Source: Convolutriloba macropyga (lineage: Eukaryota). Taken from it: a stretch of DNA of 64,000 nucleotides. The notes under the pieces were generated by a model. That model was not told the DNA's origin and searched no databases. It worked only from the letters and a program-made list of their open reading frames with translations. The stretch spans positions 65,658,001-65,722,000 of the forward strand of contig NC_134475.1 of assembly GCF_964194025.1 (NCBI RefSeq). The letters run 5' to 3'. Both the position numbers and the translations under genes were made by a program. Shown in pieces: positions 9,019 to 58,752 of this stretch (the first letter of the stretch is position 1; every line of letters begins with the position of its first letter).

Positions 9019-9406
9019 TGTCTAATTGTTGGTTGTACACCTGTATTATACTTGAGATAGTCAATTAAAATCTGAAATCAAGCACTTACCTCAACAAACT
9101 TTATCCTCTCAAAAATTAAATTATCTTCCGTTTAAAAAATAATTACCTCAGAAATGACAGTTTAAACCTAATTTACCAACAAAATCTTTAAGGTGACGTT
9201 TGACGCCGTCCTTCGAAACACGCATTCAACATCATTTAAAATGGAAGACTTGATTAAGCCCAGTTCATCACCAACAATGCAAGACCTCTTTTGATTGATA
9301 ACATTAACGATTAATTTGTATGACTCGAATCATTTGCAATAATTTGTTATTATAAAGATCAAAACCTGCTGCTGAGCTGTACAAAAAATAGAGAAATAAA
9401 CTTGTA

Positions 9407-11420: not shown

Positions 11421-12074
11421 TTGGCAAACACGCATTTTTCTCACTACTTGAGAGTGATAAAATTTCACGCGTCAAAATTGCTTTTAATTGGGTTTCAATT
11501 GATTTATTGTACAAATAGAAACAAAAAGAAAGCTCTGTCGAGAGAAAACTAAAAATTGTTCGATGTTCAGAAAGCTAACTTTTGAGCATCTATCGATGAG
11601 GCTCAACTTCAACGCCGTGACCAGTTGGGTCTAGCTAATGACGTAAACTTCCTTAATGTGTTGGGTCTAGTGGGTGACAAATATTTCTTTGATGATCAAA
11701 GTATATTTTTTTACTGAAGTTCTATACTTTACTTCTATACTTCTGAAATTTTTCTATACTTTGGAAGCACAAAAAATATTATTCCAGAGAGTTTACCCAT
11801 AAAGCAAAGCAGATAAAAATAGCACCTTTGTAAAGGCGTCCTTTTGTCTCGGAAAGCGTAGTCTACGGGACTCAATTTTAGGAGATCTGGATAAATAACT
11901 TCTAGATAATGAAAAGTTTGAGCTGACAAAAAGTCCAGAATTTTTCGCGGGATGACATTAACCAGAGAATTTTGTCAGTGGAAAACTTTCAACTCTCCCT
12001 CAAAAACTGGAGAATTCGTTGTTATGAAATATGCATAAGAAAGCTTAGAGAGATTATCGTGTAAATTGAGGACA

Positions 12075-12395
12075 AAAATAGCAGCTTAACTTTGTCTGCA
12101 AAAATCCTGGGAAACCAATACAAGAAAAACGCCTTTTAGTGTAAGGTTAATCACGGGTGACCAAAATCTTAATCACGACTAAAAAAACCAAAAATCTCGC
12201 TACAATAAGAGCAAAACATGACGTCACACACGCCATTCAGTCAAAATTGCATGAATTAGTGAACGAAACGTAAATTTGAACTAAGTGTGACGTTATATGG
12301 TGGTATCGAAAAAATTTGACACAAAATAAAAAGCAGGACACGTTCTGACCGACAATTCAAAGAATTTCCAATAACTTAACAAAAAACATGGCCTT
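12075..12395. repeat. Dispersed repeat family B, partial copy 3
   Basis: ATCACGGGTGACCAAAATCTTAATCACG, GTGACGTTATATG and GCAGGACACGTTCTGA occur in the same order as in copies 1 and 2. Confidence 0.55.
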
Positions 12396-12557
12396 ATGCT
12401 TTAAATAACACAGCTGGAGTCATTGGTAGCTAACATATTCTGGGCATACATCTCCTTATTGAGAAATTCCTTCGAATTTATTTCTTGTCAATATTTAACT
12501 ACCCAGTTGTATTCTCAATTCTAGCTTCATTCAGACTATCCACAACCACTAAAATAC

Positions 12558-37500: not shown

Positions 37501-40500
37501 ATTCATCGATCAAAGTGTCAAGGATCAATTACAAGCCAAATGCACGGACGTTACCTTGAACAAGTTGGCATACATGGGATGCAAAATTTGAGGACAGAGA
37601 AGGTTCTTATCACAATAAAGGGACTACATTAAAAGGTGCATTCGATTGAAGTGTTTGCACACCCATCAATCTCAATGGGAAACACGACATATGATTACAA
37701 GGAACTGAGGAACAACTTCAGACACCTGATTGTTCTCACTAACAAAACATTCAACCTGATGGAAGTGGGCATAATACTTGGACAAGATGCTTACGAAATT
37801 CAACATTCATTGGACTAAAAGTTTGGAACACGAAGTGAGACTTTTGCCGTCGTAACAGAATTAAGATGGGTAGACTGTGGTCCAGTGACAGGCAAGAAAA
37901 TTCAAAACTTTTGTCATTTCGCCTCCACAGAAGATGCGAAAGTGGCAGAAAATATTCAATCATGGTGGGACATTGAAACTTATGCTTCCAACATAAATGT
38001 TGTAACTCAATCAATGAAAGAGCAGCAAGCTCAGAAGTTCTTAGAGAGCATGACAAAGATTACAGGCGAGCGATATGAAGTAGGCTTGCTCTGGAGTGAA
38101 CCAGAACCCAATCTTCCAAACAACTACGGCTCGGCCCTTGGTCAGCTCTACTCATTGGAACGAAGACTCCAAAAGGACCCTAACTTGAAAGGAATGTATC
38201 AGCACTCAATTGATACAGATGTTAAAAAGGGGTTTGTGAAGATCCTTGGTAGATCGGAAGTCAAAGGTACTTTTGGAAAGAAACGGTATTTGCCACACCA
38301 TCCAGTATTAAACCACAATAAACCGAGTGAAGTTCGTCGCGTTTGCAATGCTGCAGCCAAGTAATACAATGTATGCCTAAATGACAAGCTAATAGCCGGA
38401 CCCGATCTCTTACACGGATTGAGCGGATCAAAATTCAGAATCCGAGAGGGACCAATAGCCCTAAACGCAGATATTGAATCAATGTTTCTGCAAGTGCAAG
38501 TTCCTGAAAGAGATAAAAGCTGCCTGAGATTCCTGTGACGACCAACAATGAACGAACCTGTTCAAATTTACGGATATCAACGTCATGTTTTTGGAGCAGA
38601 GTTCACCAACATGTGCCAACTACGCTCTGAAGCGAGTAGCGATCGATAACGAAGACGAGTTCCCTATTGCAACAAAAACAATCCAAAGCAAATTCTACAT
38701 GGACGATTTAATCAAGTCAGTCGAAACACTTGAAGAAGCAATCAAGGTTTTCAAACAACTGCAACCTCTTCTCTCAAAACGCGGATTTGAACTGAAGAAG
38801 TGGATCACCAACAGCGACTTGGTATCCAACGCAATCCCAGTGGACTTGAGATCAATCAGCAACACAAAGCAGGTCGAAGTAGAACCCGATAAGGATGGTT
38901 CATCCGTACTTGGGCTTCAGTGGACGATTACCGATGATAGTCTACAGGTTTGTAAAGGTACAGGCAAACAAATTGAGAACCCAATCACCCAAAGGAAAAT
39001 CTTATCCCTTCAGTGCTTGATCCTCTTGGACTGTTTGTACAATTCAGTGTTCATATGAGACGACTCCTGAAGAGCATCTGGACCAAAAATGGACAACATT
39101 GGTACAACTCAGTAGAACCTACCGAAGAAAAAGAGTTTTTGAAGTGGAAGGTGCGAATTCCAGAATTAGCAGAAACCCGCATTGATAGAAAATACTTCAG
39201 CACAGCCAAGGACAAATGTGAACTTCATGTGCTTGCCGAGGCATCTGAACATACAATGTGCGCAGTGGCATACCTACGTTCAAAGCCCAAAGAATACTCA
39301 GCAGACTTTGTAATCCGAAAGTGCCGAGTCGCACCGATGCGACACCTTTCCATACCACGCTTGGAACTACAGCAGCAGTGATGGCGGTGAGACTTAAAGA
39401 ACAGATAGTGAAGGAACACGAATCGAAGATTTAAGGTTGTAACTTTTGGACAGACTCCACTACTGTTCTGCAATGGATTCATAGCTCCCACCGTAAGCAA
39501 CAGGTGTTTGTTGCAAACAGAGTTGCTGAGATGTTGGGTACAGCTAATTGTTCGCAGTGGAATCATGTGAGTGGTATTAACAATCCAGCTGACATCGGGA
39601 CACGAGCCATCAATGTTGACGAACTTAAGAGAAGCGAATGTCTCACTGGGCCGGCCTGGTTGAAGCAACGAGATAACAAATGGCCTGAACAGGTGAACTT
39701 AACGTTTGCTTCAGACAAACAAAACGACCAAATGGTCTTCTCATCAAAGGTTGAAGAGAAGAAGCCGATTTTTCGGAGGGAACGATTCAGCAATTTCAAC
39801 CGACTAGTGAATACAATGACATACGTACAGCGCGTATTCAAAAAACACAAACCGGCAACAAAAACACCCTCTCTTTTGAAGAAAGAGAGAGTGCACAAGC
39901 AAGCATCTTCAGACTACTGCAGCAAGTACAGTTTGCTGAAGAGATGAAATCTCTCATGGTTGAAAAGGAAATTCCAAAAAACAGCAAAATCCTCCAATTT
40001 TCACCATTCATTGACCAGCAAGAACTTATTGGAGCTCAAGACAGAATAGATGAAAGTCAAATTAACTTCGAAACCAAGCATCCAATACTGTTACATTGGA
40101 AGGACCATTTAGTTGAATTATTCCTGCGAAATGAACATAAGAATAGTCATCACGAAGGTACTGAACATGTCAGAAACATAGTTCAGCAGAAATTCTGGAC
40201 CCTAGGCATACGAAATGCTTTGAGATCGATCAAAAACAAACGCATTAAATGTCGAAAAGGAAGTGCCCAAACAAAGGCACCAGTAATGGCAGATCTACCT
40301 GAAGAGCGATTAGTCGAATCAACAGTGTTCTCGAATGTGGGCGTAGACTATTTCGGACAATTCACAGTAATGATTGGCCGAAGAAACGAAAATCGTTGAT
40401 GCTGTCTATTCACAAGCCTTACTGTACGAGCAGTGCATATAGAGATCGTACCAAAACTAGACACTGATAGTTGTCTGAACGCAATTATGCGATTCATTGC

Positions 40501-42056
40501 TCAAAGAGACAATTCGGTCAAAATGATTAGTGAAAACCGGACAAACTTCGTTAGAGCTGAAAGAGAATTGGCAGAGTTTATAGCAGCATGGAACAAGGAG
40601 CAAATTGAAGAACACTGATTCAACAAGGTATCAGCTGGAAATTCATCCCACCTGCAGCGCCACACTTTAGAAGAGAGTGCGAAAGAATGGTTAGGAGTTG
40701 CAAGAAGGCAATGTACGAAGTGCTGGGCAATCGATCAGTCACGGAAGATGTTCTGTCAACCACCATGTGTCTTGATGAACAGACGCTGAATGCTAGACTG
40801 CTGACACCGGTCAGTTGTGATGTTATCGAATTAGAAGCCATCACTCCAAACCATTTCCTACTTGGCAGCAAGAACCTTTGTTTACCGTATTTATCAGGTG
40901 CAGAGCAATTTGTTGACCATAGAAAGCTCTTCCGACAAACACAAGCTTACGCAGACCTCATCTGGGACAGGTTCCGTAACGAGTACTTGCCAACGTTGAA
41001 CAGTCGAAAGAAATGGCAGACCCCAACGGAGAGAAGTCTTCAGCAGTGTGACCCTGTGTGGTTAGTGGAATACAGTGACAAACGTGGATTTTACGATCTG
41101 GGTCCAAAAACCGAAACCTTCGAAGGTTCCGACGGTTTGATTCGGTCAGCGAAAATCCAAACGAAAAATGGATACTACAAGAGGCCAGAAGTGAAGCTCG
41201 CTCCAGTACTACTAACAGGCGATGATGTGTTCAAGAAGGAAAACAGGGCCGGCGATGTTGGAGCTGAGCTTAAGGAATAACAAATAAATGCGTAGGACGA
41301 AAACTAATACGGTGTTCTATTTTTATCCGGACTATCAATCCCTTTAGCAAGAAAACTGTGTATAGCGAATCAGAAACAGCCGCGTATGCCACGTAAGCAG
41401 ACAAAAATGTTAACAAACTGATAGAAAAAACAACTCACAAGTTGTTTTTCCCAGCCTGGCAACTAGAGCTAGCACATAAACTCAGCAAAAAGATTGTTGA
41501 AATAATATAGACTTGAGCAGTATATTTGTTACTGCATCGTGTCAAAACCAAACACTTGAGCAGTATAATTGTTAAATTGATACTATGTCTTGATACCATA
41601 AATTTGTCTTGAGCAATATTTTATCTAATATTGTGTCTTGTATCGAAAATGTCTCGAACAGTGAATTAAATTTTCTGTGTCCTGATTTCCAATCTTCAAC
41701 TCGTGAATACTCTGCAAAAATTGCAACACAAACACCTAGGTTTAAGTTAGAAACCAATTCTTCATATCACTTCTCAGGCATATATTTTTGCCTCAGATTT
41801 TTTCATCAAAACCATTGAACTGGTAAACATATAGAAATCCCGTATTGTGTGATCTGTGGACCCAGTTCAATTGACAAAACAATCCAAAACTAAGTTAGTT
41901 AAATTAGTTAATGCAACGTTAAGTACAGCAGAACGGATATACAGTTACAAAAGCAAACTGCATAAACGAAGTATCTGGACAGATTTTGTAAGCACTCAGA
42001 ACGAACTGGGCGGTGTAAAACTTTCTTTGTGAAACACAAGGAGAGCAGCCGTTACA
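34571..42056 (+). mobile_element. BEL/Pao LTR retrotransposon 2, full-length but decayed (LTRs 34571-35348 and 41256-42056)
   Basis: TG...CA LTRs about 85-90% identical by eye, PBS-like TTTGGTCCGCCAACCCGG at 35349 and PPT-like GAAAACAGGGCCGGCGA. Coding remnants: gag FDGIPLEWPEW and CYGCLGKGH, protease FLDIGS, RT FYMDD, integrase VGVDYFG. The TSD is degenerate (CCGGT/TCGGG). Confidence 0.93.
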
Positions 42057-44334: not shown

Positions 44335-44465
44335 AGATATTTTCCGTTTGTGCCCCCCCCCACCAGTTCGCCATGCACCCCTAGTACAGAGCGCGTGTCA
44401 TTGCATAGTAAATCATTCAGATAAAATATGGCACGTGCGTCTGGGGGATGCAACTAATATGCACC
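44335..44465 (+). mobile_element. MITE-like family A, left part (interrupted by the Maverick; right part 58132-58171)
   Basis: The left end GATATTTTCCGTTTGTGCCCCCC pairs with GGGGGACATAAACGGAAATGATCC at 58147-58171. Joining the two parts recreates the copies at 3590-3733 and 21316-21382. Confidence 0.75.
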
Positions 44466-46530
44466 AGTAGTATACTAAAATGCACGTATTGTCACGGGGG
44501 GGGGACGTCCCCCCCCGTGACAAATCGTGCATAACGTTTTGTCACGGGTGGGGACGTCCCCACCCGTGACAAATCGTGCGGTACATTTTTGAGGTCGAAA
44601 AATTTTGTCTCTCAATTTTGCCGGGGGACAAAAAAAAAATTTTCTCGATTTGTGCCGGGGACAAAAACTTGTAAAATTTTCTCAAATTTGTGGGGGACAA
44701 AAACTTGCAAAATTTTTGTCAATTTTGTGCGGTGAGAAAAACTTGTGAAATTTTTGTCGAATTTGTTCGGTGGGCAAAAACTTACGATTTTTCCAGCTAT
44801 TTTGTGCGGGGAATAAAAACTTGTTAAAATTTCACAGTTTTCTGGAATTATTGAAAAACTTGTGAAAATTTTGCAATTTTTGGGGGTCCCTTAAGTTGGT
44901 TTTAAAATTTAAAAATTCTTAAACCCTTTTTTAGTCAAAAAGACTATTCATGGGTTTTCAAAAGACAGAAAATTTACTAAACTTTTCATTATTTCAATCT
45001 CGTCATAAGTTTTATGACGAGATTGCCGACCGGTAAATTGATGTGCCGACCGGCAATTCCAAGTGCCGACCAGTAAATTGTGTAAAACAAGGTGTTTGAG
45101 GGACAATGCAAATGTGATCACGTAATATAGTGTAAAACTTGGGGAAAACTATAAAAATGACAAAATTTCAACGGGAAAAACTGATGTCCGACTGAACCTT
45201 ACTGCGTAACTTAGGCAAAATGATAGAATGAGCAGTCTATTTCCCTTAAATACTTAAAAAAACTAAGCTTAAAAAAACTTAAATACTTTAAACCAAAATG
45301 GAGTCAAATTTTGGTGGTTTTGATCCAACATCTGGTTTTGATCCAACATCTGGTTTTAATTTGATAGTTTTATTGCCCATTTGTTATCCCAGATTAGGGA
45401 GTGTGGGCAGATAAAAAACCAATAAAATTTAAGTGCCAGGGCTCCAAATTGAGAATTATTGTGTCTGATAAGAAATTTGCAGCGTCCGAGGTGAAAAGGA
45501 TGCAACTTTGCAGAAAATGAGAAGAAATATACGTATGAAATGGACAAAACAAATGCTCGAAACTATATGAAATGTTCCAAAAAAGTACTGAAAAAGTGTT
45601 TGAAAATGTGCGGTAAAGCAATTCATATACCACAACTGTATGACGGAAGAGTTAAAAATGGAGAAAAAATTAGTGTATTTTTAGAGTAAAAATTGTTGTT
45701 TTTGAACAATTTTATGCAAAATACTTCCTCAAAAAGCAATTCCATTATGCACAAACTGTTTTGCATTGAAAATGACAACAAGTGCCGACCGGTAAATTGT
45801 GTGAAACAAGGTGTTTGAGGGACAATGCAAATGTGATCACGTAATATAATGTAAAACTTGTGGAAAACTATAAAAATGACAAAATTTTAACGGGAAAGCT
45901 GATGTCCGACTGAACCTTACTGCGTAACTTAGGCAAAATGATAGAATGAGCAGTCCATTTCCCTTAAATACTAAAGAAAACTAACTTTTATTTTTTGTGA
46001 ATGATATTCTAATTTTTTCTCTACATTAATAAACAGTTTTCCTGTTCTGTTTTTGTTCTCCAAAAATCTTCATAGCACTAACAATAACTTAAATAAAGCT
46101 GTATTTCTACAGAGTTTATCAATTTTTATCTAATCTGCACTTGTTTTTTCCGACCTGTGATTGGTTGAAAGCTGACTGAAGATTAATTTTAGCCTGGTGC
46201 ATATGTCAATATATGTTTTTGATTTTTGTTTGTTTTGCAAAATTTGGTCAAGGTTTTTGTGATTGGTTGGCCGAGTTTTAGGAATTATTATGTCTACTAC
46301 ATGTGCCAACATATGTCTTTCATTTCTATAAGCAATTCAGTGTGGTGGTCTCCGCTTCTCTGATTGGTCACTCGAGTTTAGCCTTTATTATCGTCTTGCA
46401 CATGTTTGAACACGTACTGTTTTATTATCAAAGACACGGTGTGGTCACAAGTTTGAGTTTGTATTTAAAAAGAAAGTAGTATGTCGTCGTCTCAAGATTA
46501 CTTTGATTTTTATCACAATATAGCGCGTTC
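44466..46530 (+). repeat. Left terminal inverted repeat (~2.06 kb)
   Basis: Reverse complement of 56305-58131 apart from an extra block at ~45020-45295. It contains two GC-rich palindromes (44490-44522, 44540-44571), ~35-bp tandem repeats (44620-44880) and several CCAAT boxes. Confidence 0.9.
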
Positions 46531-46801
46531 TGAAAAACGATATGTAGTTGCCTGTCTGAAAACATATGATAATACTGGAACTTCTATATCGCTGAAACTT
46601 TTCAAAAAAGAGAACGGAGACAACGAATTTCGTTTCAACCAAAAACTCACTCTCTCTATGCAGGAATTGGAGCAAGTGGGAGAAAATATAGATGCTATTA
46701 GAAGAATAGCTCTCTCAAAATTTGCGAACGATCAGAGCAGCTCTGGCAAAAAGAAAGTTACAGCCTGGTTCCAGTTTAGAAACAAATGGTCAAAATCGTA
46801 G
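46481..46801 (+). CDS. Maverick ORF, PC4-like ssDNA-binding protein candidate (3' end probably disrupted)
   Basis: ATG start. The pattern YVVACLKTYD..SISLKLFKK...QKLTLSMQELEQV resembles the PC4 fold (ISL..EQW..L). Pattern recognition only. Confidence 0.45.
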   Translation: MSSSQDYFDFYHNIARSEKRYVVACLKTYDNTGTSISLKLFKKENGDNEFRFNQKLTLSMQELEQVGENIDAIRRIALSKFANDQSSSGKKKVTAWFQFRNKWSKS

Positions 46802-46861
46802 CTGCAGATTCAAAAAATCAAAAAAAAGCCTCAGAGAGTGATAAAGAGAATTAAATAGCAA

Positions 46862-47467
46862 ATGAAAATGGTTGAAGCAATGTTTGAGCGTACACCTGAA
46901 TATCTTCGACAATTCCAAAAACTTTTTCGATATTTTATTGGCAATAGTGAGCCCCAATTTGATTCTAATCTTACAAAAAACTTCGCATACAGCCAGCACA
47001 AAAATGAAGATCATTGCAAAATACAACAATTTCCTTACCATGTCATTGCTGCTGTTGATCAATTACCGCAGTCCTTCAAGGATACTTCTTCTAAACCATA
47101 AACAATACCATGTCTCTTCACTTGTTTTCAATTGCTCATTCGGGGGTTTTCTCACATAGTGCATTATGGCGAAGTGATGGAAAAACTTCAAGACGCAGTC
47201 AGTTACAACGATCAGCACAATCTAGCTGTTTCAGTTTCTAAGAAAAAATTACCAAATGTAAACATGCTAATGACACAGGATTTCCAAACGCAAACTGACT
47301 TTTTACCTACTTGCACTATTGATAGATTTTATAGTATTTATAATGGTGGTATGTACGGTGAGCTTTCCAAAATACTTGATATATTAAATAGTGGCTATGT
47401 TTGTTTGCATCTTGATAATAGTTTGATTTTGATAAATTTTAATATGGAATCGAAATATTTTAATTAA
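46862..47467 (+). pseudogene. Fragmented Maverick ORF(s) of unknown function
   Basis: Consecutive short + strand ORFs (46862-47101, 47132-47467) converge on the protease gene. No recognisable motif. Confidence 0.35.
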
Positions 47468-47528
47468 CAATTGTCTTGTTCTCTTGTCTTTGAAGAAAGA
47501 ACTGAGCAAAAAAAGTTAATAAAAAATG

Positions 47529-47954
47529 TTAGAGCATATGGTTAGCAAAATGTATCAAATCATTATCGTTCATATTCAACATCAAAAGATATTCATAACC
47601 AAACATCACATGTGCAATAAAAATGCAAAAAAGTCCAAAAAGTTTTGAATTTTGATTTTGAACTGGCTTAAGTTTGAGTATTTGAGTTACTTCATTGTAA
47701 AATTTTAACAGTCGGCAATACAATAATTGGTAGTTTTGTATCGGGGTTCCAAGCGGATCTGCCAAATAAACTTTGTTTTTGTGAAGCAAAAGAACCATCC
47801 AATGACTTCCTGCATGTTGCGACGGTGAAGCATTGACTATGATAAATCCTTCTCTTGTTAACTTTGGGAAATTGTCCGCGGCAAAAACTCCATAAAAATA
47901 ATGCTTCAAATGAATACATTTTCCCAGCAAATAGCGTATTTCATCACTATCCAT
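47529..47954 (-). pseudogene. Adenain-like cysteine protease (catalytic Cys replaced)
   Basis: MDSDEI...GVFAADNFP...IIVNASPSQHAGSHWMVL...YLADPLG...QNQNSKLFGLFC: His and Asp are present, but the Q...CG.FC nucleophile reads FG. Confidence 0.85.
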
Positions 47955-47959
47955 CTCTG

Positions 47960-49270
47960 GGGTAGGTGATAATCGAGTTTTTTTCACCTTTCGTTCCGAA
48001 TTAACATAGAATGTTGAGCTTCTTTCACCCAGAAATAGAATTTCTACGTTGGCTGCCAATGCTCCGTCAAATGTAAGTTGAACTGAAATTGAGCAATTTG
48101 TAAGTTCTGGATGAATGAAATCATGAGAAGCTTCTTGCGTTGATGTTAAATCAAAAGCTAGAATAAAGTGATTGGGATAATTGTCCAGAGTTATGCCATG
48201 CCCACCTTTGTCAAGAAAATCTAGGGCTTCAAGAGTATTGAAATAAATGCGGTGGTTGAAATTTGTTGAGACAGGAGTTCCAACAATAGGTTGACCATTT
48301 CGATAAACAACAATTTGGCTCAAGTTGAATTTCTGGTAGTGTAAGGGATTTGTGCGATTAGTTCCGAGGTATGCTTGATTTGTTGCCATTGCAATTATCA
48401 TACGCCGTACAGGTTCTTTCGAGAAAAAATCCTCATGGCTCCAACTTCTTATTCCAGTTGTAGCTGAAAAAGTTCGCGGCAATACTTCTGTATAGCGATA
48501 CACGGCAGGTGTTTTTAGTAGAGTTTTCTCAATCGCCGTCAAAACATGATCCGCTATTGTCATTTTTCTAACGTAGAGATAAGCTTCAATTATTTTGACT
48601 TTGTAATGTTTGTTTGACTCTGAAATTACAGCAAAATCATTTGTAGACCTTCTAAATGAAATTCGCAGAGTAACACCACTAAGTAAGTGTTTATCACAAG
48701 TTAAAATATCACTCGCCGCCTTTCCAAAAAATAGTTTTCCTGGGAATTAGCAACAAGAGCTTTTCTGGCCGCTACGTCGTCCGCGCGACCATCGGCGCCA
48801 TCAATTTTAGCTGGCTCTTCCTCGTAATAATATCCCTGACAAACTAGCCATGTGTTTTTTGCAGTTTTTCTTGAAGAAAATTCTGTTTCAATGAATGCTC
48901 TGTGAGCATAATTTACGTTTGTATTGGAAATTTTAACACCGTTAGCAGATACAGTGCATTCTGAAAATAAAGAATGTAATGCGTTGTTGCTAACGTATGG
49001 CGCGTCTGTATTTGTAGCATCAGTTCCTGTTCTTAAATCGCCGTCATTGTTTCGGGAGATTTTACATTTAATTTCGAGGAGAAGTTTCTGTAAATCTATG
49101 AAATTGTTTCTATCGCCCAAAACTTCAAACTCAAGCATTGGACCGTGCGGTGAATAAGATGGTCCGACTTTTTGAGTAAAAGCATTGTCAAAAGTAATAA
49201 ACAGAGACTGTTTTTCAAACAAATCAAGTGTGGTGGGTGTTGCCTCTGCGGGCAGTAAATTAGTAATTAT
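47960..49270 (-). pseudogene. Double jelly-roll major capsid protein (hexon-like), frameshifted
   Basis: N-terminal TLDLFEK, then FEVLGDRNNFIDL, NNALHSLFSECTVSANG, NYAHRAFIET, NPLHYQKFNL and ILAFDLT. Split across ORFs 48701-49222 and 47529-48563. Confidence 0.88.
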
Positions 49271-49274
49271 TTTG

Positions 49275-49652
49275 AACTTTAGAAAAGAAATTTGACCGAC
49301 TTCTCGTCAAGGGCTTCTTCTTACGAATGCCTTGTTTTGGGTTTTCACCGTTGGTTTTTAATTTACGTATTCTTTTTGATCCGCCCACTTGTTTTCTCAC
49401 AGTTTTTTGCACAGTCGATTTTAATGCTTGTTTTGGAGAGTTTTTCTTTGTAACAACCTCTATAAGCTCAGGAGCTGCTTGAACAATTAATTCACGTCAA
49501 ATCTTTTTGGCTACAAGCCAAAGAAATTTTCTTGCAATCAGTAATGCTGCTCTGCCAATACCTGCTGCTAAAGCCCCAAAACCGCTTCCTCGTTGACGAT
49601 AGTGTCCTGAAAAGTATGGTGACACCGATTGCTGTTGATAGTAGGCTTCCAT
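49275..49652 (-). pseudogene. Basic core/membrane-active virion protein precursor (pX/cupiennin-like); not in the ORF track
   Basis: Manual translation gives MEAYYQQQSVSPYFSGHYRQRGSGFGALAAGIGRAALLIARKFLWLVAKKI*...RKQVGGSKRIRK, with adenain-type QxGxG/QVGG sites, an amphipathic helix and a Lys-rich tail. It sits between penton and MCP. Confidence 0.7.
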
Positions 49653-50517
49653 TTAGTCGAATTTTTTAAAATTTAAAGTCAAAATAACTTTTCCTGTTCC
49701 AGCGAATGGAACTAATTCTCCAGTTTCTGTCCGCAATTGAATTTCAATTGACTGAAAATTTTTTGATAATAACTTTTTGTATTCCAGGTTGCTGAAGACA
49801 ATTCTGTGCGTTGGCTCTATTTCGCAGGGGCTACTGTTTTTCAGGCGTTGTTTTGAATCAATGACTCGAATAAGAGGAGCTTTAGTATCACCTACGTATT
49901 GATACTCAATAATGTTAACGTAAATAAAAATCAGTTGCTTCCCTGCAGACAAATCAAAAGGATAATCGCCAATAAAAATTTTTTTCTTCGTCATCAGCCG
50001 TTGTCAGATTTTCAAAAGTGTCCAACATCTTGTATCCAATATGATAACCAGACCCATCGTGAATACCGTTGAAACCGAGTATGCTTGGAATTTCTTTATC
50101 TGGAAAAGTAATTCATTCGTTTTTACCAAAAAAGAGGAATAAAACTCCGTTGAATTTGTTAAATTGAAAGTCAAAATGAGGCAATCCAGTAGCTGTTTTT
50201 AAGGATCTCAAAAGATGGTCACGGTTTTCATAGGAACCAGTTCCAATAATTGCTCGTTCTCCACCGTATGGTCTGGAGACAGCATCAAATGGAATACTTT
50301 TTTCATAAAACTTAAGGCCTTCAGAAGAAAATATCTTTAAATCACTTTTGTTCACTTGATTTATTTTTGCCCGGAAGATAATTTCACTTAGTGCAACTCG
50401 CCAATCCCCCTCCAAATTAATTTCTTCATTGAAATAATTTTTGAATGAGGACAAAGTGTTTTGAGGAAAAATATTCATAGAGGCTGATGAAACTAAGTGA
50501 ACCGTGAATTCATTCAT
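49653..50517 (-). pseudogene. Minor capsid protein (penton), disrupted
   Basis: MNEFTVHLVSSASMNIFPQNTLSSFKNYFNEEINLEGDWRVALSEI and FIYVNIIEYQYVGDTKAPLIRVI...IEIQLRTETGELVPF are typical Maverick penton motifs. Confidence 0.88.
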
Positions 50518-51578
50518 GTTTTGTTATTTCACTACTGTTGTATCTAACTTTGACCAACTCTAATTCATAAAATTTTCCCTTGAATGGCTCCTGGGATGCG
50601 TCAATGAGACTATAAGTAGGAGGATTTGTTGTAGGTATATCGTAAATCTCAAAAACTTCGTTGGTAAATGTTTGCTTGTATCCTTTTCTAAAAGGAAGAT
50701 CCGCTTTTGATATTCGCACAAAGTCCCCAATGTAAAACTTTGGTCGGCGAACTAGATTTGCTGAATCATTAAAAATTATTGATATCAAGTAAGGAACGTC
50801 TTTCTTTGTCACTTTATTCGGCGCCATTTTCGTTACTCTGTTGACTCTAGAGTTTATGGTTTGCACAAAGCTCTGCAATTGATTAATATACGAATATGTC
50901 CATTTGTCCTCTAAATACTTGTATATCAAATTCTTGAGTGATCGTATATTTGTTTCCGCAAATGCTGATTTTTTCTCGCTGAACGTTTTATAAACTTCGA
51001 TTTCATTTTTCTGACATAGAGTGCTGAAAGAGCCCTTAAATTCTGTACCAGCATCTACACACACTTTTTTAGGTCGCTTGTTCCTTATCTTTTTCTTGAA
51101 CGCATCTGCTGTTGTTGTGGCGCACTTTGTTTTTAACTGTTCGAAATTTATCCACATGAGCCAAGTCTAGCGACCAAATTTTGTTCACATCGTAGGCAAT
51201 AACCTTCAGTGTTGAAAATTTTTTTCTATATTTTTTATGCTTTGTGTGGGCATTTTAAACCTCCAGGAACAATTTCATTTTACTTGGTTTCAAGTTTGTG
51301 ATTCTTTGTAGATTTTTTACGCTTCCATATGCTGCGGGACCTTTCTTATATTTCAACTCAAGCAATTTTTTCTCATTCGTCGAAAGACTCCCAGTTCTTC
51401 TCCTCTTGCTGAGTTCTGTCTTCCTTCGAAGTTTCGAAACCACTTCCGGCGTCTGAGGATTCTTCTGTAAGTAATTGACTGGTTTCTTTGTGCTTGATTC
51501 CTTTTGGCGAAATAGTTTCCCTTTTCTTTTTTGGTTTGGCAGTTCTTTGAGTTCTTTTCCGGATCGCAATTTTAGCAT
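50510..51578 (-). pseudogene. Polinton-type retroviral-like (rve) integrase, disrupted
   Basis: YKKGPAAYGSVKNL, WSLDLAHVD, PKKVCVDAGTEFKG, KSAFAETNIRSLK, PKFYIGDFVRISK..PFRKGY and GKFYELELVKV. There is an internal stop and an apparent deletion near 51150. Confidence 0.9.
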
Positions 51579-52059
51579 TTCTGTTGATCACCAAGTCCTC
51601 TTTTATGTTTAAAACCTCAAGAATCTTAAAATAATCTGGATTACTTAGTTTTTTAGTTGGTTGTTGCAAATCATAGAGAAAAATAGGGACATTTATTCCT
51701 GTTGCTGTTCCGTCAACAATGAAATTTTCATTTTCGTCTATAACAACTTTTTTTGACTCTTTAATGAGGCTAACTATTTTCTCCGTCCTGGTGAATTTCG
51801 CTGGCGCTTAAACGTTAAGATTTTGAAGAATTTTGTCTGCTTTCACTTTTGACAACTCAGTGGGATCAGTTGTTTCCCTTGTATCTAAAATTTCCTGGTA
51901 TTCTTTATTAGTGTTTTCATTTGGTCGCATACAGTTCAAAAACGAAAATTGAGCACCTCTATGCTGAACTCTGGGATCATTTAGAATTTGTGAGGAATAT
52001 GGTTGCTCTTTCAAAGATTGATTTTTGGGAATCAAAAAAAACTCTTCAGCAGTTGACAT
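51540..52059 (-). pseudogene. Maverick hypothetical protein (one internal stop)
   Basis: MSTAEEFFLIPK... continues in frame to FLYDLQQPTKKLS..DYFKILEVLNIKEDLVIN. It lies in the packed minus-strand gene array. Confidence 0.5.
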
Positions 52060-52062
52060 GGT

Positions 52063-52362
52063 TTAACTCAAATGGATGAAACAAAATTTTATAATGAGTT
52101 GAATCAATTCGAAACCGGTTTTTGTTAGAAAAAGCGCTCGTCGTTTATCCATTGATGACTTTTTCTTGAGAACAATTTCAAATATGTATCTGTATTTTTC
52201 TAAGTCTCTCACTTTCACTCTAACATGACCCAGCAAGACATTGTGAAGGCATTCACATAGAACCAGTATAACATCACTATCACAATTACGCAGGTATTTC
52301 CTTAACTTTTTTGGTTGCAAATGCACCATTTGCTTCAGTATAGATAATTTGTTCTCTTTCAT
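52063..52362 (-). CDS. Conserved small Maverick/adintovirus protein
   Basis: LRNCDSDVILVLCECLHNVLLGHV matches the (I/L)CECxxNxLxGxV motif I recall from small ORFs next to Maverick ATPases. Confidence 0.6.
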   Translation of the reverse strand: MKENKLSILKQMVHLQPKKLRKYLRNCDSDVILVLCECLHNVLLGHVRVKVRDLEKYRYIFEIVLKKKSSMDKRRALFLTKTGFELIQLIIKFCFIHLS

Positions 52363-53005
52363 TGTTTAGAGGGGTTGTTTCTGCTTTATCAGATGGAAGG
52401 TAGAACACTCTAGGACCTGGCTCAGTAATATTTGAACAGTATCGTAAACAATCCGAAGTTTTTGGATCAAGATCGATAAGCAAATGCCCAAATGGTTCTT
52501 TCGTTGCCAATTGATAGCAATGTTTTAAAAATTCAACAAAATTTAACTGCCTGCCTAAAAATTCGCCTTGTTGAATATCGCGGGCTGATTTGAACAGAAT
52601 GATGTGGGATGTGTTCAAGTCTATTGTACGAGACCACTTGCTCTGCTGATAAAGATTGTGCTTTATGTAAATAACATTAATCTTTTTGTGACGCCCTGCA
52701 GTGGCCAGCTTAACAAATTTTTTGCCGTTTTAAATTTCATTGCACGAGTTGTCGATTATCAAGAGAGAGTTTTCAAGGTTATTCAAAAATTCTAAATTGG
52801 CATACTTTTTGAAAATAACTCCAAGTTCCTGCTCCATTTTGACGTATATTTGTTGCATTTCTCTATATAAAATTATAATGTGGTTAAATTTTGGGTAAAA
52901 TGTGTTTCCACTCAACATTTTGAAAATTAACTCTGTTTTGCCACAACCTGAGGGCCCTACAACGGCCATGAAGACTCTATCTTGCGTAGATATAATTTTA
53001 TTCAT
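52286..53005 (-). pseudogene. A32/FtsK-like DNA packaging ATPase, frameshifted
   Basis: Walker A VVGPSGCGKT, Walker B LLIIDN (DD expected), ATAGRHKKI...HNLYQQ and NTSHIILFKSARD...PFGHLLIDL. Confidence 0.9.
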
Positions 53006-53276
53006 AGTCTTGGATTTAGTAAAATGTATCCAACTAAACTTGACAATCTGGACATTAAAACTGAGCTTTCTTGACAATTTGGTTTTAACACGGTTAACTT
53101 CACAATACAAAGTGATATTAGTAGTAAAATAACAAACATTTGCACAAAAATACAACTTTCGAGCGTGGCAAAGTTGTTTGGTTACAAAATTTCCAAGACG
53201 ATTTGCTGCTACTTTCTTTTTCAAAATAATTTTCCTCTACAACAGCGTCAACTTGATCGACTGTTTCTCCTTCCAT
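53002..53276 (-). pseudogene. Small putative membrane protein upstream of the ATPase (frameshifted; not in the ORF track)
   Basis: MEGETVD...CNQTTLPRSKVVF...LSSLVGYILLNPRL* has hydrophobic segments. Its stop overlaps the ATPase start (ATGA). Confidence 0.5.
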
Positions 53277-53370
53277 CTCAACAAAAAATAAAAACTTGTT
53301 GAAAAAGTATCAATTGGGTATCAGATTACATAAAACAACTCATAGCAATTAAACTCAGTTAGAAAGTCTT

Positions 53371-53806
53371 TCATATGAACCATGAAGCACTCAGAGAGTC
53401 TCTCAGTTTTGTTATAATGAACAATTTTGTGATTTTGTGCACTCTTTCTTCCTTCATCAAGAGTTGAATCTCTTTTCGCAGTGAAGGATCGTTTTTGTCA
53501 ATTTCCTCACCAACCGGGTGCTTCGACATCAGTAAGAGTTTCGGAGGACAGACTCTGGGTTGATTTTTTGACATTCTGCTTTCTCCACTGAAGAAAAGGT
53601 TCAATATAATACACTAAATGAGTGAATGAGCGAATTTCGTCCTCATTCAGCAACAATTTAACTTTTCTCTGAAAAAACTGATTTCCGGTTTTTATGGTTT
53701 CGTCTTTGGAAATTGAAAGACTCAGATTCCCGTCCCCCGTAATCAAGGCACAAATTGTTGAACTCGGTGACAACGCTGTCTCCATTTTCGTCAATTCCTC
53801 TCTCAA
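53371..53806 (-). pseudogene. Maverick hypothetical ORF, disrupted
   Basis: ORF 53507-53806 (METALSPSS...LSLSISKDE...KLLLNEDEIRSF) lies in the gene array. Function unknown. Confidence 0.35.
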
Positions 53807-54259
53807 TGGTTAACCAGTTGAAAGAGAAAATGGCTTTTTCTTTTGCACAATGTTTGTTGAAAATGTTTTTGCCCTTTGAATGATTTTGACAATTTTGTGT
53901 AAAATAGTTCACAGATATCGAAGGACACTCAAGTGAATTCAGATCAATAACAGGACATTGAAGCAATTCTGACAAAAACTTAACTTTTTCCGCTCCCTTA
54001 GCGTAGAATATTGCACTAGGATTCCGCAAGCGAACGCTTTGAATTATTTGTGTTAGATAAATATAGGGATAATTTCCTATGTCCCAATCAATACCGTGCA
54101 AATTTCTACTCAACCAACTGAAATATTGCTTTTGTTGAGCTGTTAACTCACTATAACTTGTTGGTGGTAAAAATGACACGCAGTCTTCAGTACAAATTCC
54201 AAACTATTAACAAAAAAATTTTTTTTTCTGTGACGTAATCCTTCAACGTCTAACACCGC
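53780..54259 (-). pseudogene. DEDDh/DnaQ-like 3'-5' exonuclease-family protein
   Basis: N-terminal VLDVEG (Exo I DxE, ~54240-54256), then LHGIDWDIG, FYAKGAEK..FL and C..H......HCA. Frameshifted near 54200. Confidence 0.6.
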
Positions 54260-54655
54260 TCAGCATTCAAATAGGTGAAAAATTGACGGATGAAAAATCT
54301 TTATATATAAGCAAAATAATATTCCCGACAAATGCCCGCTATAACTGTTGCTGCTTTTCCACGGAAGCATATAAGAATAACCAGGTCCTTGGTTATATAT
54401 TTCGTATATGAAACCTCTTGCGTCGTGTAAAATAGCGTGCAAACGTAAAATTTTTGATACTTTTAGATACTTGTCGAGAGATGAATTGTCGATGCCAATT
54501 AGACCTCCATATGGACGCAACTTTAGAGCAATATCATGATCAAAGCAGTCCAACTCACTAAAATATTCACTTGCTGCCAGGAAATAGTTTAATCTTACTG
54601 ATTTTTCAGGATAAGATGTAGAAATGGATAAGTATTTGTCGTGAATGTTTTCCAA
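54260..54655 (-). CDS. Small HD-motif protein, possibly phospholipase A2-like
   Basis: PYGGLIGI...LRLHAILHDARGF...GPGY. The helix-HD arrangement recalls viral PLA2-type domains. Tentative. Confidence 0.35.
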   Translation of the reverse strand: MENIHDKYLSISTSYPEKSVRLNYFLAASEYFSELDCFDHDIALKLRPYGGLIGIDNSSLDKYLKVSKILRLHAILHDARGFIYEIYNQGPGYSYMLPWKSSNSYSGHLSGILFCLYIKIFHPSIFHLFEC

Positions 54656-55023
54656 TCAGTTTCTACAAGGAACTGGTTGATCAAAACGCATGCCAAGTCT
54701 TTTTTTCTCACTTACCAAACTGCAACTCAACAAAGTTTTTAATGCTTTTCGCTGAAGAGTCTAAAACATTTTTTATTAACAATCTCTAAACAAAGAGTGA
54801 ATAAGATTTTGTCATTCTAATAATAGCGACAGACTAACTTATCGGGTTTTGAATTTTATAGTTTTAAACACTAAGAACCAATCACCGCAATGCTGACTGC
54901 ATGTTGTTTTTGTTTGTCCATGAATTCTCCAATTGGTTATGATAAGACTTAGAACAACGCATTCGTATACTGTGTAGTCAGTGTCCTTTCGCCTTACTAG
55001 AACTAAGGTTAAATTTCAAAATT

Positions 55024-55166
55024 TTGCTGTATTTTGATTGGCTAAGATAAAAACCAAATATATCCAGCTATTATGCTCTACGTGACAAGTATTGTTATTG
55101 CTGTTTTCTGATTGGCTAAGATAAAAACCAAATATATAAAACTATTATGCTATAAGTGACAAGTAT
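55024..55166 (+). promoter_or_regulatory. Tandem duplicated 74-bp CCAAT/TATA-like module in the divergent intergenic region of the Maverick
   Basis: TGATTGGCTAAGATAAAAACCAAATATAT...CTATTATGCT...GTGACAAGTA occurs twice, between the minus-strand gene array and the + strand ORF at 55512. Confidence 0.45.
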
Positions 55167-55511
55167 GTTTTTGAGATTTTCTTAGAAGCAACACGCCTAA
55201 ACATGTAGCAAAAACAATTGAACACAAATAATCACTTTCTTTCAATTCTTGCATACTGTTTGGTTACTCACAAAATCCAAATCTTTGCTCTACAACAAAC
55301 TGAAAATTGTTTGCAAACTCTTTTCACAGTCTTTCCTCATTTCTTTTTGTCTTTCTCCACTATTGATAACAATCTAATTATTCTCGAAACAAGATTGATA
55401 CAAAATTCTTAAGTCTTAGAACAAATTGTTTTATCTTTTGATTATATAGAAAAGCTGACCAAAAGTTTTCACGACCTGACAAATTACCACAACAAATCAT
55501 TAATTGCAGCA

Positions 55512-56102
55512 TTGTCTTCAAAGTTTGAACATGTCTCCGGTGGCAATTATTCTGAAAGAGGAGAGGCCAATCCCGATTTGAGAACAACAGCATATGAAAC
55601 TTACAAAATAGAGAAAGTCGTTATTGTTAAACAAGAGTTGCGGGACAACGAGTGGATTACAATTAACCACATGGCGCTACCAATTGTAATTTTCGACTAC
55701 ATCAAATCATTCAGATTTGAAAAGGCGCTGATGAAAGGAGCACAGTACACGATCGATCATGTTACCGGCTACGTAAGAGAATTTGTTTTCAATCCAGAGA
55801 CGATTGATGAAAATGTTAGGAAAATTCTTTACGACTATGATATCAAAGAGATTCCTCTATACGAAAATCAGGAGGGCTATTGGAGGAACCTGGAAATTAT
55901 TGATAGTTTCTGGCTTATTCCAAAAAGCCCTGAAAGCCCAAACATTACAAGTCGGTCAAATTCTCCTCTACCAGACTCAACGCCAACTCCCTCAACTCCC
56001 AAGGTAGCGGAAGTTTCCATAATTGCCAGCAGCAGTCTCGAGACGCCACCAGTGAGCCTTTGCTTTGCTCCAAAGAAACGAAAGCTTGATATCAACTTCT
56101 AA
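55512..56102 (+). CDS. Maverick ORF of unknown function with a Ser/Pro-rich tail and C-terminal NLS-like APKKRK
   Basis: 196-codon open frame without stops. The start shown is non-ATG. No polymerase motifs. Confidence 0.5.
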   Translation: MSSKFEHVSGGNYSERGEANPDLRTTAYETYKIEKVVIVKQELRDNEWITINHMALPIVIFDYIKSFRFEKALMKGAQYTIDHVTGYVREFVFNPETIDENVRKILYDYDIKEIPLYENQEGYWRNLEIIDSFWLIPKSPESPNITSRSNSPLPDSTPTPSTPKVAEVSIIASSSLETPPVSLCFAPKKRKLDINF

Positions 56103-56304
56103 TACTCATTTAAAGACATTGCTTCTTTTGTTTCTGAGATCTTCTAGTGTGAAAACTATTTTGATAGTATTGTTTGTTCCGTGTTATATAGCCTAATATT
56201 TTTTTCTATTTTTTGTCTCAGCGCACATTGTTCCACTTGAAATTGAATTTTTGCTTCCACTCCACTTTTATCTCATACACAGTAAACAGTATACACAATC
56301 TATT

Positions 56305-58131
56305 GAACATGCAATATCGTGATAAAAATCAAAGTAATCTTGAGACGACGACATACTACTTTCTTTTTAAATACAAACTCAAACTTGTGACCACACCGTG
56401 TCTTTGATAATAAAACAATACGTGTTCAAACATGTGCAAGACGATAATAAAGGCTAAACTCGACTGACCAATCAGAGAAGCGGAGACGACCACACTGAAG
56501 TGCTTATGGTAATAAAAGAGACCACACCTTGTCTTTGATAATAAAACAATACGTGTTCAAACATGTGCAAGAGAGTAATAAAGCCTAAACCCGATTGACC
56601 AATCAGACAAGCTGAGACGACCAGACTGAATTGCTTATGGAAGTGAAAGACATATGTTGGCACATGTAGTAGACATAATAATTCCTAAAACTCAATTGGC
56701 CAACCAATCACAAAAGCCTAGACCAAAACTTGCAAAGCAAGCAAAAATCAAAAACATATTTTGTCATATGGACCAGTCTAAAATTAATCTTCAGTCAGCT
56801 TTCAACCAATCTTAGGTCGGAAAAAACAAGTGCAGATTAGATAAAAATTGATAAACACTGTAGGCATACAGCTTTAGTTAAGTTATTGTTAGTGCTATGA
56901 AGATTTTTGGAGAACAAAAACAGAACAGGAAAACTGTTTATTAATGTAAAGAAAAAATTAGAATATCATTCACAAAAAATAGAAGTTAGTTTTCTTAAGT
57001 ATTTAAGGGAAATGGACTGCTCATTCTATCATTTTGCCTAAGTTACGCAGTAAGGTTCAGTCGGACATCAGTTTTCCCGTTAAAATTTTGTCATTTTTAT
57101 AGTTTTCCCCAAGTTTTACACTATATTACGTGATCACATTTGCATTGTCCCTCAAACACCTTGTTTTACACAATTTACCGGTCGGCACTTGTTGTCATTT
57201 ACAATGCAAAACAGTTTGTGCATAATGGAATTGCTTTTTGAGGAAGTATCTTGCATAAAATTGTTCAAAAACAACAATTTTTACTCTAAAAATACACTAT
57301 TTTTTTCTCGATTTTTAACTCTCCCGTCATACAATTGTGGTATATGAATTGCTTTACCGCACATTTTCAAACAGTTTTTCAGTACTTTTTTGGAACATTT
57401 CATATAGTTTCGAGCATTTGTTTTGTCCATTTCATACGTATATTTCTTCTCATTTTCTGCAAAGTTGCATCCTTTTCACCTTGGACGCTGCAAATTTCTT
57501 ATCAGACACAATAATTCTCAATTTGGAGCCCTGGCACTTAAATTTTATTGGTTTTTTAATCTGCCCACACTCCCTAATCTGGGATAACAAATGGGCAATA
57601 AAACTATCAAATTAAAACCAGATGTTGGATCAAAACCAGATGTTGGATCAAAACCACCAAAATTTGACTCCATTTTGGTCTAAATGTAGTTATATTACAT
57701 AAAACTTATGAAGAGATTGAAATAGTAAAAAGGTTTTTAAATTTTCTGTCTTTTGAAAACCCATGAATAGTCTTTTTGACTAAAATAAGGTTTAAGAATT
57801 TTTAAATTTTAAAACCAACGTAGGGGACCCCCAAAAATTGCAAAATTTTCACAAGTTTTTCAATAATTCCAGAAAACTGTGAAATTTTAACAAGTTTTTA
57901 TTCCCCGCACAAAATAGCTGGAAAAATCGTAAGTTTTTGCCCACCAAACAAATTCGGCAAAAATTTCACAAGTTTTTCTCACCGCACAAAATTAACAAAA
58001 ATTATACAAGTTTTTGTCCCCCGGCAAAATTGAGAGACAAAATTTTTCGACCTCAAAAATGTACCGCACGATTTGTCACGGGTGGGGACGTCCCCCCCCC
58101 CGTGACAATACGTGCATTTTAGTATACTACT
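56305..58131 (-). repeat. Right terminal inverted repeat (~1.83 kb)
   Basis: Reverse complement of the left TIR. It has a private ~130-bp tandem duplication (56389-56640) and carries the first ~16 codons of the 46481 ORF in antisense. Confidence 0.9.
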
Positions 58132-58752
58132 TGCACCCACTAACCTGGGGGGACATAAACGGAAATGATCCAGTTTTTCGTTTTTTTTCCTTTTCTCAAA
58201 TTGCACCGCAAAGATATCAATTTTTAAGTATAAGTTTGTCTTACAACTCATATCATTAAAGAGGATTCTACTAATAGATCTCCCGCTCCCCAGTAGGTTA
58301 TGCAACCACCTGTTACAGAACCCGTGCCGTTACACAGTAAATCAATGCGTAAAAATATAAAAGTTTGGAGCGGGGGGGGGGGGGGTGGGGGTTGCATGCT
58401 TATTGCACCTCTTTTTCAGAATGCACCTTTTGGCGGCAAGTTATTTTCATACTATTAAGTTAAAAATGGCCCAGATAAAAGTCAGTAAAGGTTTGTTTTT
58501 CGTTCTGTTTTTATCATGAAAACGCTAGAATATGATATGACCATGGTACTGGGCAGAGAAAAATGCAGAATTGAAAATCCATGATTCAGTACTGAGATTG
58601 TCTGTTAATTAGTTCAGTCCGCGATATAATTTCGAATTCATGAAGCCAACTGCTGCATTCATTTTTTGTCTGCACATTATAGTACTAGCTTCGGTTTAAC
58701 GACTTCAGCTGGCTTTGGCTGTGTTTTTTCAACTATTTTTGTCGCCTAGGAG

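What the first reader, a model, noticed from the sequence alone, without database searches (positions are those of the whole stretch)
44466..58131. Polymerase-less Maverick/adintovirus-type endogenous virus that keeps the whole virion module and integrase
Seen: both ends are intact (AGTAGT termini, perfect TGCACC TSD). The ~9.8 kb between the TIRs is almost fully tiled by protease, MCP, core protein, penton, integrase, ATPase, exonuclease-like and small ORFs. I find no pPolB motif (DxxSLYP, KxxxNSxYG, YxDTDS) in the ORF track, and no unassigned stretch is long enough for a ~3-kb polymerase. Known: pPolB is the defining replication gene of Mavericks/Polintons, and AGTAGT ends are the protein-priming origin. 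Inference: this is either a helper-dependent satellite lineage that packages and integrates itself but borrows polymerase/terminal protein in trans, or a single copy that lost pPolB after insertion. The copy is decayed, so both remain open.
Basis: partly seen in the sequence, partly recalled or inferred. Interest (0 to 1): 0.8.

Follow-up and report, generated by a model that had tools for sequence, protein, structure and literature searches.

The report
Polymerase-less satellite Mavericks matched to helpers
An animal genome holds many copies of an integrated DNA virus that keeps its capsid and integrase genes but has no DNA polymerase, and each of three such lineages carries the same end sequence as one polymerase-bearing relative, which suggests a virus that borrows its replication enzyme from a matched helper.

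Summary
Confirmed and extended. The 13,666-bp element (AGTAGT ends, ~2-kb TIRs, TSD TGCACC) has no pPolB, and this is not one damaged copy: 18 of 18 sister copies read end to end are collinear, polymerase-less and have perfect 6-bp TSDs. The genome holds six related subfamilies: three pPolB-less (W = window family, A, C; ~13-14 kb, one shared rearranged layout) and three pPolB-positive (E, B, D; ~17-19 kb). Gene content differs only by pPolB. The terminal ~80-115 nt match in pairs (W-E 95-96%, A-B 94-98%, C-D 92%; 50-72% between pairs), each polymerase type is found only next to its own terminus type, yet W is only 67-77% identical to E inside and is sister to A. Capsid, protease and integrase genes evolved under purifying selection between W and A (dN/dS 0.09-0.28). 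A reciprocal form (pPolB kept, integrase and capsid deleted) also spread to two loci. Best reading: long-lived, capsid-encoding satellite Mavericks replicated in trans by a helper's terminal-protein polymerase and matched to it by the origin. Inferred from sequence only; no replication shown. polB-less mobile polintons have one precedent (a butterfly preprint); the origin-matched helper pairs were not found in my searches.

The parts
44460..44465 (.). Left target-site duplication TGCACC
44466..46530 (+). Left terminal inverted repeat (~2.06 kb); runs into the start of the first ORF
44466..44579 (+). Terminal ~115 nt (AGTAGT end, G-run/C-run palindrome): the only stretch of the ends shared with pPolB-positive subfamily E; presumed replication origin
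46481..46849 (+). L1, ~125-aa protein with a PC4/Pur-alpha/Whirly-like ssDNA-binding fold (lead only); frame broken here; also present in pPolB-positive forms
46862..47467 (+). L2, ~200-aa conserved ORF of unknown function; one stop here; its tree groups the three polymerase-less lineages
47529..47954 (-). Adenain-like cysteine protease (PF00770)
47950..49270 (-). Major capsid protein (441 aa in open-frame relatives; label by size, order and recall); frame broken here
49260..49652 (-). Basic core-type protein (~132 aa; label recalled); one stop here
49653..50517 (-). Penton/minor capsid protein (287 aa in relatives; label by size and order); broken here
50510..51587 (-). rve integrase; broken here by a deletion private to this copy
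51373..52362 (-). Two conserved ORFs (~228 and 99 aa), unknown function, shared with pPolB-positive forms
52286..53005 (-). A32/FtsK-type packaging ATPase (239 aa); one stop here
53005..53806 (-). Three small ORFs (~91, 81, 99 aa), unknown function
53658..54290 (-). 209-aa ORF with a DEDD-exonuclease-like start (label recalled, no profile hit); broken here
54260..54691 (-). 143-aa conserved ORF (called PLA2X-like in my scripts from a recalled motif; untested)
55531..56102 (+). R1, ~190-aa protein ending in PKKRKL; weak PC4/Pur-like fold; lies directly upstream of pPolB in pPolB-positive forms, moved and inverted here
56305..58131 (-). Right terminal inverted repeat
58132..58137 (.). Right target-site duplication TGCACC

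Best explanation
The element is one decayed copy of a helper-dependent satellite lineage of Mavericks (polintoviruses). An ancestor lost pPolB and was rearranged; its descendants (W, A, C) kept virion, packaging and integrase genes under selection. In a nucleus where a complete Maverick with the same terminal sequence is active, the helper's terminal-protein/pPolB primes and copies the excised satellite; the satellite packages and integrates itself with its own proteins. Because priming is specific for the ends, a satellite lineage persists only by carrying its helper's terminal ~100 nt, and it changes helper by taking over that stretch by recombination. Shown: absence of pPolB, independent insertions, paired ends, polymerase-terminus linkage, purifying selection, gene exchange between A and B. 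Inferred: replication in trans, virion formation, a single loss, the direction of end capture.
For: 18 of 18 sister copies polymerase-less with perfect TSDs, 18 different TSDs among 19 copies, flanks not shared apart from short 46-80 nt repeats. Gene sets of W, A, C equal those of B and E minus pPolB; no gene is gained. Terminal identity W-E 95-96, A-B 94-98, C-D 92, other pairs 50-72. Polymerase type against terminus type is diagonal: E 3/0/0 of 5 hits, B 0/24/0 of 32, D 0/0/18 of 23. Terminus-to-terminus lengths are bimodal: A/B 13 pairs at 12.3-14.1 kb without and 11 at 17.1-17.4 kb with pPolB, of 28; C/D 10 at 12.6-13.4 kb without and 6 at 19.0-19.1 kb with, of 26. W is not a deletion of E: 67-77% nt inside, W+E clade rejected in 7 of 9 gene trees. 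Ends do not follow the element's own integrase (W integrase 85-89% to A and B, whose ends differ; A/B versus E 69-71%; C versus D 65%). dN/dS W versus A: capsid 0.09-0.12, protease 0.17-0.19, penton 0.11-0.19, integrase 0.26-0.28. Ages run in pairs: C-C and D-D copies 99.4-99.5% alike, A-A 97% and most B polymerases 95-99%, W-W 95-97% and E polymerases 89-95%. An integrase-less, capsid-less, pPolB-positive form sits at two loci with one deletion junction, so same-ended elements do act on each other in trans. Specificity of polymerase/terminal protein for homologous ends is established for phi29 (PMC2175359, abstract).
Against: No replication, particle or expression data. Only 3 E-type copies with the exact window terminus were found, only one read in full, and it is decayed and looks slightly older than W, so the genomic E copies may not be the molecules that helped. 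A, B, D and E are each judged from one or two fully read copies; the rest is by position, from searches that scored only 40 candidates each. A single loss is supported only by the shared layout, long TIRs and the L2 tree (94/96; 97/97 without B); the clade W+A+C is rejected in 6 of 9 genes with B included and in the ATPase tree even without B. Since A and B swapped the exonuclease-to-penton block (97-98% aa), part of the purifying selection could have acted in a polymerase-bearing genome. Shared ends could reflect neutral recombination between co-replicating genomes.
Confidence: 0.75

Rival explanations
1. Polymerase-independent spread: the integrase excises and re-inserts the element (cut and paste with host repair), with or without packaging; matched ends are a by-product of recombination.
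For: Integrase is kept under selection; all insertions carry integrase-type 6-bp TSDs; A and B clearly recombine.
Against: Three of three polymerase-less lineages match a different polymerase lineage at exactly the terminal ~100 nt while the rest of the TIRs is unrelated or far more diverged; ends do not follow the integrase tree; capsid selection is hard to explain without amplification before packaging.
Confidence: 0.1
2. Ordinary recent deletion derivatives (defective genomes) arising repeatedly from each complete subfamily, like the polB-less butterfly polintons.
For: Each polymerase-less form shares its ends with one complete form; A and B are 97-98% alike over four genes.
Against: W versus E 67-77% nt, C versus D 66-70% nt, A versus B protease 55%, L1 42%, L2 43%; W and A are sisters but have different ends; layout differs from the complete forms.
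Confidence: 0.05
3. The helper is something else: the distant alpha-type pPolB Mavericks of this genome, or a larger DNA virus as for virophages and some PLVs.
For: Alpha-type pPolB elements with long open frames are abundant (77 matches among 91 scored of 3,893 candidates).
Against: Their ends share little beyond the first 5-8 letters (49-60% over 80 nt) and no DNA similarity with the window element.
Confidence: 0.05
4. A cryptic replacement replicase is hidden among the small ORFs, making this an autonomous PLV-like virus.
For: Several ORFs have no family hit; L1 and R1 have ssDNA-binding-like folds.
Against: All those tested are also present in pPolB-positive B and E; apart from capsid, penton and integrase none exceeds about 240 aa; no helicase or primase hit.
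Confidence: 0.04
5. A single copy that lost pPolB after insertion.
For: The window copy is decayed.
Against: 18 of 18 other insertions have the same layout.
Confidence: 0.01

Closest known systems
Mavericks/Polintons (polintoviruses, adintoviruses) of animals
   Same: TIRs with AGTAGT ends, 6-bp TSD, rve integrase, A32-type ATPase, adenain protease, integrase-penton-core-capsid-protease order (PMC8097293 passages; same order in distant metagenome relatives).
   Different: No pPolB, which by definition all Polintons encode (PMC5499653, abstract start in listing); three diverged lineages share the loss.
polB-less polintons of Pieris mannii and a Gypsy-replaced group (preprint 10.1101/2025.02.07.637071, sections 12-13 read)
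   Same: TIR-flanked polintons that lack polB and stayed mobile; the authors leave their mobilisation open.
   Different: Those are highly similar to complete copies and tied to TE insertions; here the lineages are old, rearranged, under purifying selection and matched to unrelated-interior helpers only at the ends.
Polinton-like viruses and Tlr1 that lack pPolB (PMC11161782, PMC11296320 passages)
   Same: Jelly-roll morphogenetic module without a canonical pPolB; trans-acting integrase has been suggested for some.
   Different: They replace pPolB by helicase, PolA or primase fusions; here nothing replaces it.
Satellite viruses that encode their own capsid but use a helper's replicase (e.g. 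satellite tobacco necrosis virus; recalled), and non-autonomous DNA transposons
   Same: Works like them: cis ends recognised by a helper enzyme, own capsid kept.
   Different: dsDNA, integrating, and the helper is a close relative with an interchangeable structural module.

Membership tests
Maverick/Polinton (Polintoviricetes) | Terminal inverted repeats with simple-repeat ends and 6-bp TSD | tested here: met
Maverick/Polinton (Polintoviricetes) | Retroviral-like (rve) integrase | tested here: met
   PF00665 E 2.8e-9 on an open-frame relative, 85-91% identical to the window gene
Maverick/Polinton (Polintoviricetes) | Protein-primed family B polymerase | tested here: not met
   so it is a derivative of the family, not a member in the strict sense
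Maverick/Polinton (Polintoviricetes) | [quoted passage not shown] | tested here: met
   PF04665 and PF00770
Maverick/Polinton (Polintoviricetes) | Double jelly-roll major capsid and single jelly-roll penton | tested here: inconclusive
   No Pfam, PHROGs or PDB-sequence hit; not folded; size and position fit, and homologues keep the order in distant relatives
Polinton-like viruses / Tlr1 | A replacement replication protein (helicase, PolA, primase fusion) | tested here: not met
   No such hit, no long unassigned frame, no gene absent from the pPolB-positive relatives
Satellite virus (helper-dependent, own capsid) | Lacks its own replicase but encodes a capsid under selection | tested here: met
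   (capsid identity itself inferred)
Satellite virus (helper-dependent, own capsid) | Replicates only with a helper | not testable with these tools
   Only indirect: paired ends and ages
Defective deletion derivative of a co-resident element | Near identity to the complete parent along the kept sequence | tested here: not met
   W-E 67-77% nt, C-D 66-70% nt

The most novel reading that the evidence does not exclude
A single ancient polymerase-less Maverick lineage has survived as a true satellite virus by repeatedly capturing the replication origins of new helper lineages, while trading structural genes with them; together with the reciprocal polymerase-only form that has the same ends as C, the group is splitting into complementary replication and virion segments, an incipient bipartite dsDNA virus recorded in an animal germline.
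Probability: 0.35. Interest if true: 0.9.

Novelty: new variant of a known kind. Interest (0 to 1): 0.78.

Why it matters
pPolB is the defining gene of Mavericks, and how polB-less copies move was raised as an open question in a recent preprint. Three natural satellite-helper pairs with matched ends give a direct handle: they delimit the Maverick replication origin to about 100 terminal bases, predict which polymerase recognises which end, and argue that virions matter (capsid genes are kept by elements that gave up their polymerase). Surveys that bait with pPolB would miss or discard such elements.

Tried and rejected
Viral-contig scan with the capsid protein: 12 candidates, none confirmed. 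Metagenome scan: 14 distant loci (38-58%), mostly short; 2 of 14 show a pPolB piece, none shows both ends, so they say nothing on polymerase loss elsewhere. Sequencing runs: no RNA holder listed. Contigs of a run labelled as a second organism cover 30 of 30 bins, but in short pieces at low depth, so presence in another species is only a hint. The 18.6-kb W copy is not a helper: its extra 4.8 kb is a nested LTR retrotransposon. Two unpaired W-type termini examined led to a 2.2-kb TIR-only element and a 595-bp end fragment, no pPolB. Six alpha-type pPolB elements share only part of the integrase at protein level. R1 had no usable Atlas hit; fold matches of L1 (Z 6.2) and R1 (Z 4.3) are below the tool's trust level. 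Non-coding parts of W gave no clue to the rearrangement path. Three look-ups in earlier scan findings were empty. The 2006 Polinton paper was not held, so its non-autonomous families are known to me only from recall.
Full report
Observation. The element spans 44466-58131 (13,666 bp), starts AGTAGT, ends ACTACT and is flanked by TGCACC on both sides. The TIRs are about 2 kb and leave 9,774 nt between them. Thirty pPolB open frames from the same genome give a best tblastn E of 0.04; eight pieces of the pPolBs of the element's own clade give nothing at E<=1 in 45 polymerase-less records, the window element among them, but find their controls at E 1e-14 to 0. Protease, integrase and ATPase are confirmed by Pfam; capsid, penton, core and exonuclease labels have no profile support and rest on size, order and recall. 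Most genes of this copy are broken.

It is a family. A DNA search of the own genome (1.18 Gb) scored 40 of 1,073 candidates and returned 40 places at 91-100%. I read 18 sister copies end to end: all are collinear with the window copy, none has pPolB, 18 of 18 have a perfect 6-bp TSD, 18 different TSDs occur among the 19 copies and the flanks are not shared. Length outliers come from internal duplications, deletions or a nested LTR retrotransposon. Copies are about 96% alike (105 pairs of 15 loci). The only named homologues of the capsid protein come from the acoel Convolutriloba macropyga, so the host is probably this acoel or a close relative (inference).

Six subfamilies. A protein search showed further capsid groups (103 scored of 5,852 candidates). 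Reading representatives gave three polymerase-less forms, W (window), A (two copies read, about 90% nt to W) and C (two complete copies of 13.0 and 12.8 kb with TSDs, about 70% nt), and three pPolB-positive forms, B (17.4 kb, one read in full), D (19.0 kb, one in full, one in part) and E (17,674 bp, TSD CAGGTC, decayed; one in full, ends of two more). B, D and E run: structural block, L2-L1 on the other strand, R1, pPolB. W, A and C run: R1 inverted at the far end, structural block, L2-L1, with long TIRs of 1.2-2 kb against about 0.1-0.5 kb in B, D, E. Of 15 non-polymerase genes tested, all are present in W, A, C, B and E, and 14 in D. Nothing replaces pPolB. L1 and R1 fold weakly like PC4/Pur-alpha ssDNA-binding proteins (Atlas 0.86; Foldseek E 0.03; Z 6.2, rmsd 2.3 over 58 residues and Z 4.3, rmsd 3.4 over 61), are leads only, and occur in the helpers too.

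Ends come in pairs. Over the first 80 bases (homopolymer runs shortened), W-E are 95-96% identical, A-B 94-98%, C-D 92%; W/E versus A/B 68-72%; everything else, including two unrelated alpha-type pPolB families, 49-61%. W and E share only the terminal ~115 nt of their non-coding ends. Genome-wide, exact terminus patterns matched 64, 83 and 99 places, with 0 for the reversed controls. Taking polymerase hits of at least 88% identity over at least 500 nt (5 of 45 rows for E, 32 of 44 for B, 23 of 42 for D), those lying inward of an exact terminus fall on the diagonal: E 3/0/0, B 0/24/0, D 0/0/18. Paired termini give two size classes for A/B (13 of 28 at 12.3-14.1 kb without pPolB, 11 at 17.1-17.4 kb with) and C/D (10 of 26 at 12.6-13.4 kb without, 6 at 19.0-19.1 kb with); 0 of 19 W-type pairs and 0 of the 40 places have a clade pPolB hit nearby. 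These searches scored only 40 candidates each, so counts are lower bounds.

Not simple deletions. W and E are 67-77% identical inside, C and D 66-70%. In nine gene trees of eight rows (C2, D2 and one W copy left out; no outside root) a W+E clade is rejected in seven, not in ATPase (p 0.49) or R1 (p 0.07). W groups with A in capsid and protease (100/100) although their ends differ. A and B are 97-98% identical in the exonuclease-like, ATPase, integrase and penton genes but 55% in protease and 42-43% in L1 and L2: a recent exchange between a polymerase-less form and its same-ended partner, which implies that they replicated together. Against a tidy single origin: W+A+C is one clade in the L2 tree (94/96) and not rejected in protease and R1, but rejected in six genes when B is included, and in ATPase even without B. 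Between W and A dN/dS is 0.09-0.12 for capsid, 0.17-0.19 for protease, 0.11-0.19 for penton, 0.17-0.21 for ATPase, 0.26-0.28 for integrase (three W copies). Ages also pair up: C-C and D-D 99.4-99.5%, A-A 97% with most B polymerases 95-99%, W-W 95-97% with E polymerases 89-95%; E thus looks somewhat older and rarer than W.

A reciprocal form. Two 13.0-kb elements with C/D ends keep pPolB, L1, L2 and R1 but lack ATPase, integrase, penton, core, capsid and protease; both have the same deletion junction, are 91-95% alike, and the one read in full has a TSD (GAAGAC) (the second was read for 8.5 of 13.1 kb). An integrase-less form spreading to two loci is the simplest evidence that same-ended elements complement each other in trans.

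Mechanism. Shown: loss of pPolB, many independent insertions, paired ends, polymerase-terminus linkage, purifying selection, recombination. From established knowledge: Maverick pPolBs carry the terminal protein at their N-terminus (PMC11161782, passages), end repeats are expected to serve protein priming (PMC8097293, passages), and phi29 polymerase/terminal protein recognises homologous ends (PMC2175359, abstract). Inferred: the helper's polymerase copies the satellite from the matched ends, the satellite packages and integrates itself, and lineages switch helpers by taking over about 100 terminal bases. I put this at 0.75.

Comparison with print. Polintons are defined by pPolB plus integrase (PMC5499653, listing only). 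PLVs and Tlr1 that lack pPolB carry another replicase (PMC11161782, PMC11296320, passages). The preprint 10.1101/2025.02.07.637071 (sections 12-13 read) reports mobile polB-less polintons in butterflies, highly similar to complete copies, and leaves their mobilisation open; this is a precedent for the bare observation. Eight full-text searches and passages of PMC8502044, PMC11131425, PMC6431247, PMC4028283 and preprints 10.1101/2023.08.22.554363 and 10.64898/2026.10.13.758929 showed no old, selected, origin-matched satellite lineages. The library lacks most subscription papers, Repbase and the 2006 Polinton paper, and I read no supplements, where such families could be listed.

Verdict.

Noticed in passing
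L155-L156 (G000:C13:47731566-47744582) and L157 (G000:C5:14775856-14788932): pPolB-positive, integrase-less and capsid-less 13-kb form with C/D ends and one shared deletion junction at two loci; complementary to subfamily C.
   Followed up: partly
L119-L122, L135-L136: Subfamilies A and B share a 97-98% identical exonuclease-to-penton block with a breakpoint in or near the capsid gene; tree shape suggests transfer from the polymerase-less side to B (inference).
   Followed up: partly
L101-L118: Unrelated alpha-type pPolB Mavericks with long open frames; the same structural block occurs with two different end types and opposite pPolB orientation (L104/L113/L117 versus L108/L110), another case of ends travelling with the polymerase.
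   Followed up: no
L097:469-2641 (G000:C2:71385968): A 2.2-kb element made only of W-type TIR sequence with both ends, a MITE-like derivative.
   Followed up: no
window 46316-46446 and 55024-55182: 131-bp and ~75-bp CCAAT-rich units that vary in tandem copy number between sister copies (up to about a dozen in L040); probably promoter elements.
   Followed up: no
window 45060-45266: The left TIR of the window copy holds a ~200-bp duplicate of TIR sequence from 45790-45985 in place of the matching right-TIR segment.
   Followed up: no
L081:3667-8475: A 4.8-kb LTR retrotransposon inserted between L2 and the protease gene of a W copy.
   Followed up: partly
L130:7494-9998: D-type pPolB has N-terminal C2H2 fingers and an endonuclease VII-like insert (Pfam, below cut-off); PF03175 detects this clade poorly, so family searches missed all helper copies.
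   Followed up: no
window 23334-29443 and 36968-41280: Two decayed BEL/Pao-like LTR retrotransposon remnants (label recalled from the ORF sequences).
   Followed up: no
window 6751-13180: Host-type open frames on the minus strand (756, 224 and 214 aa), not examined; inverted repeats at 14.8-19.1 kb and an N run at 20473-21203.
   Followed up: no
run X5: Contigs from a run labelled as a second organism cover the whole interior in short pieces, one 98% alike across the TIR-L1 border.
   Followed up: partly
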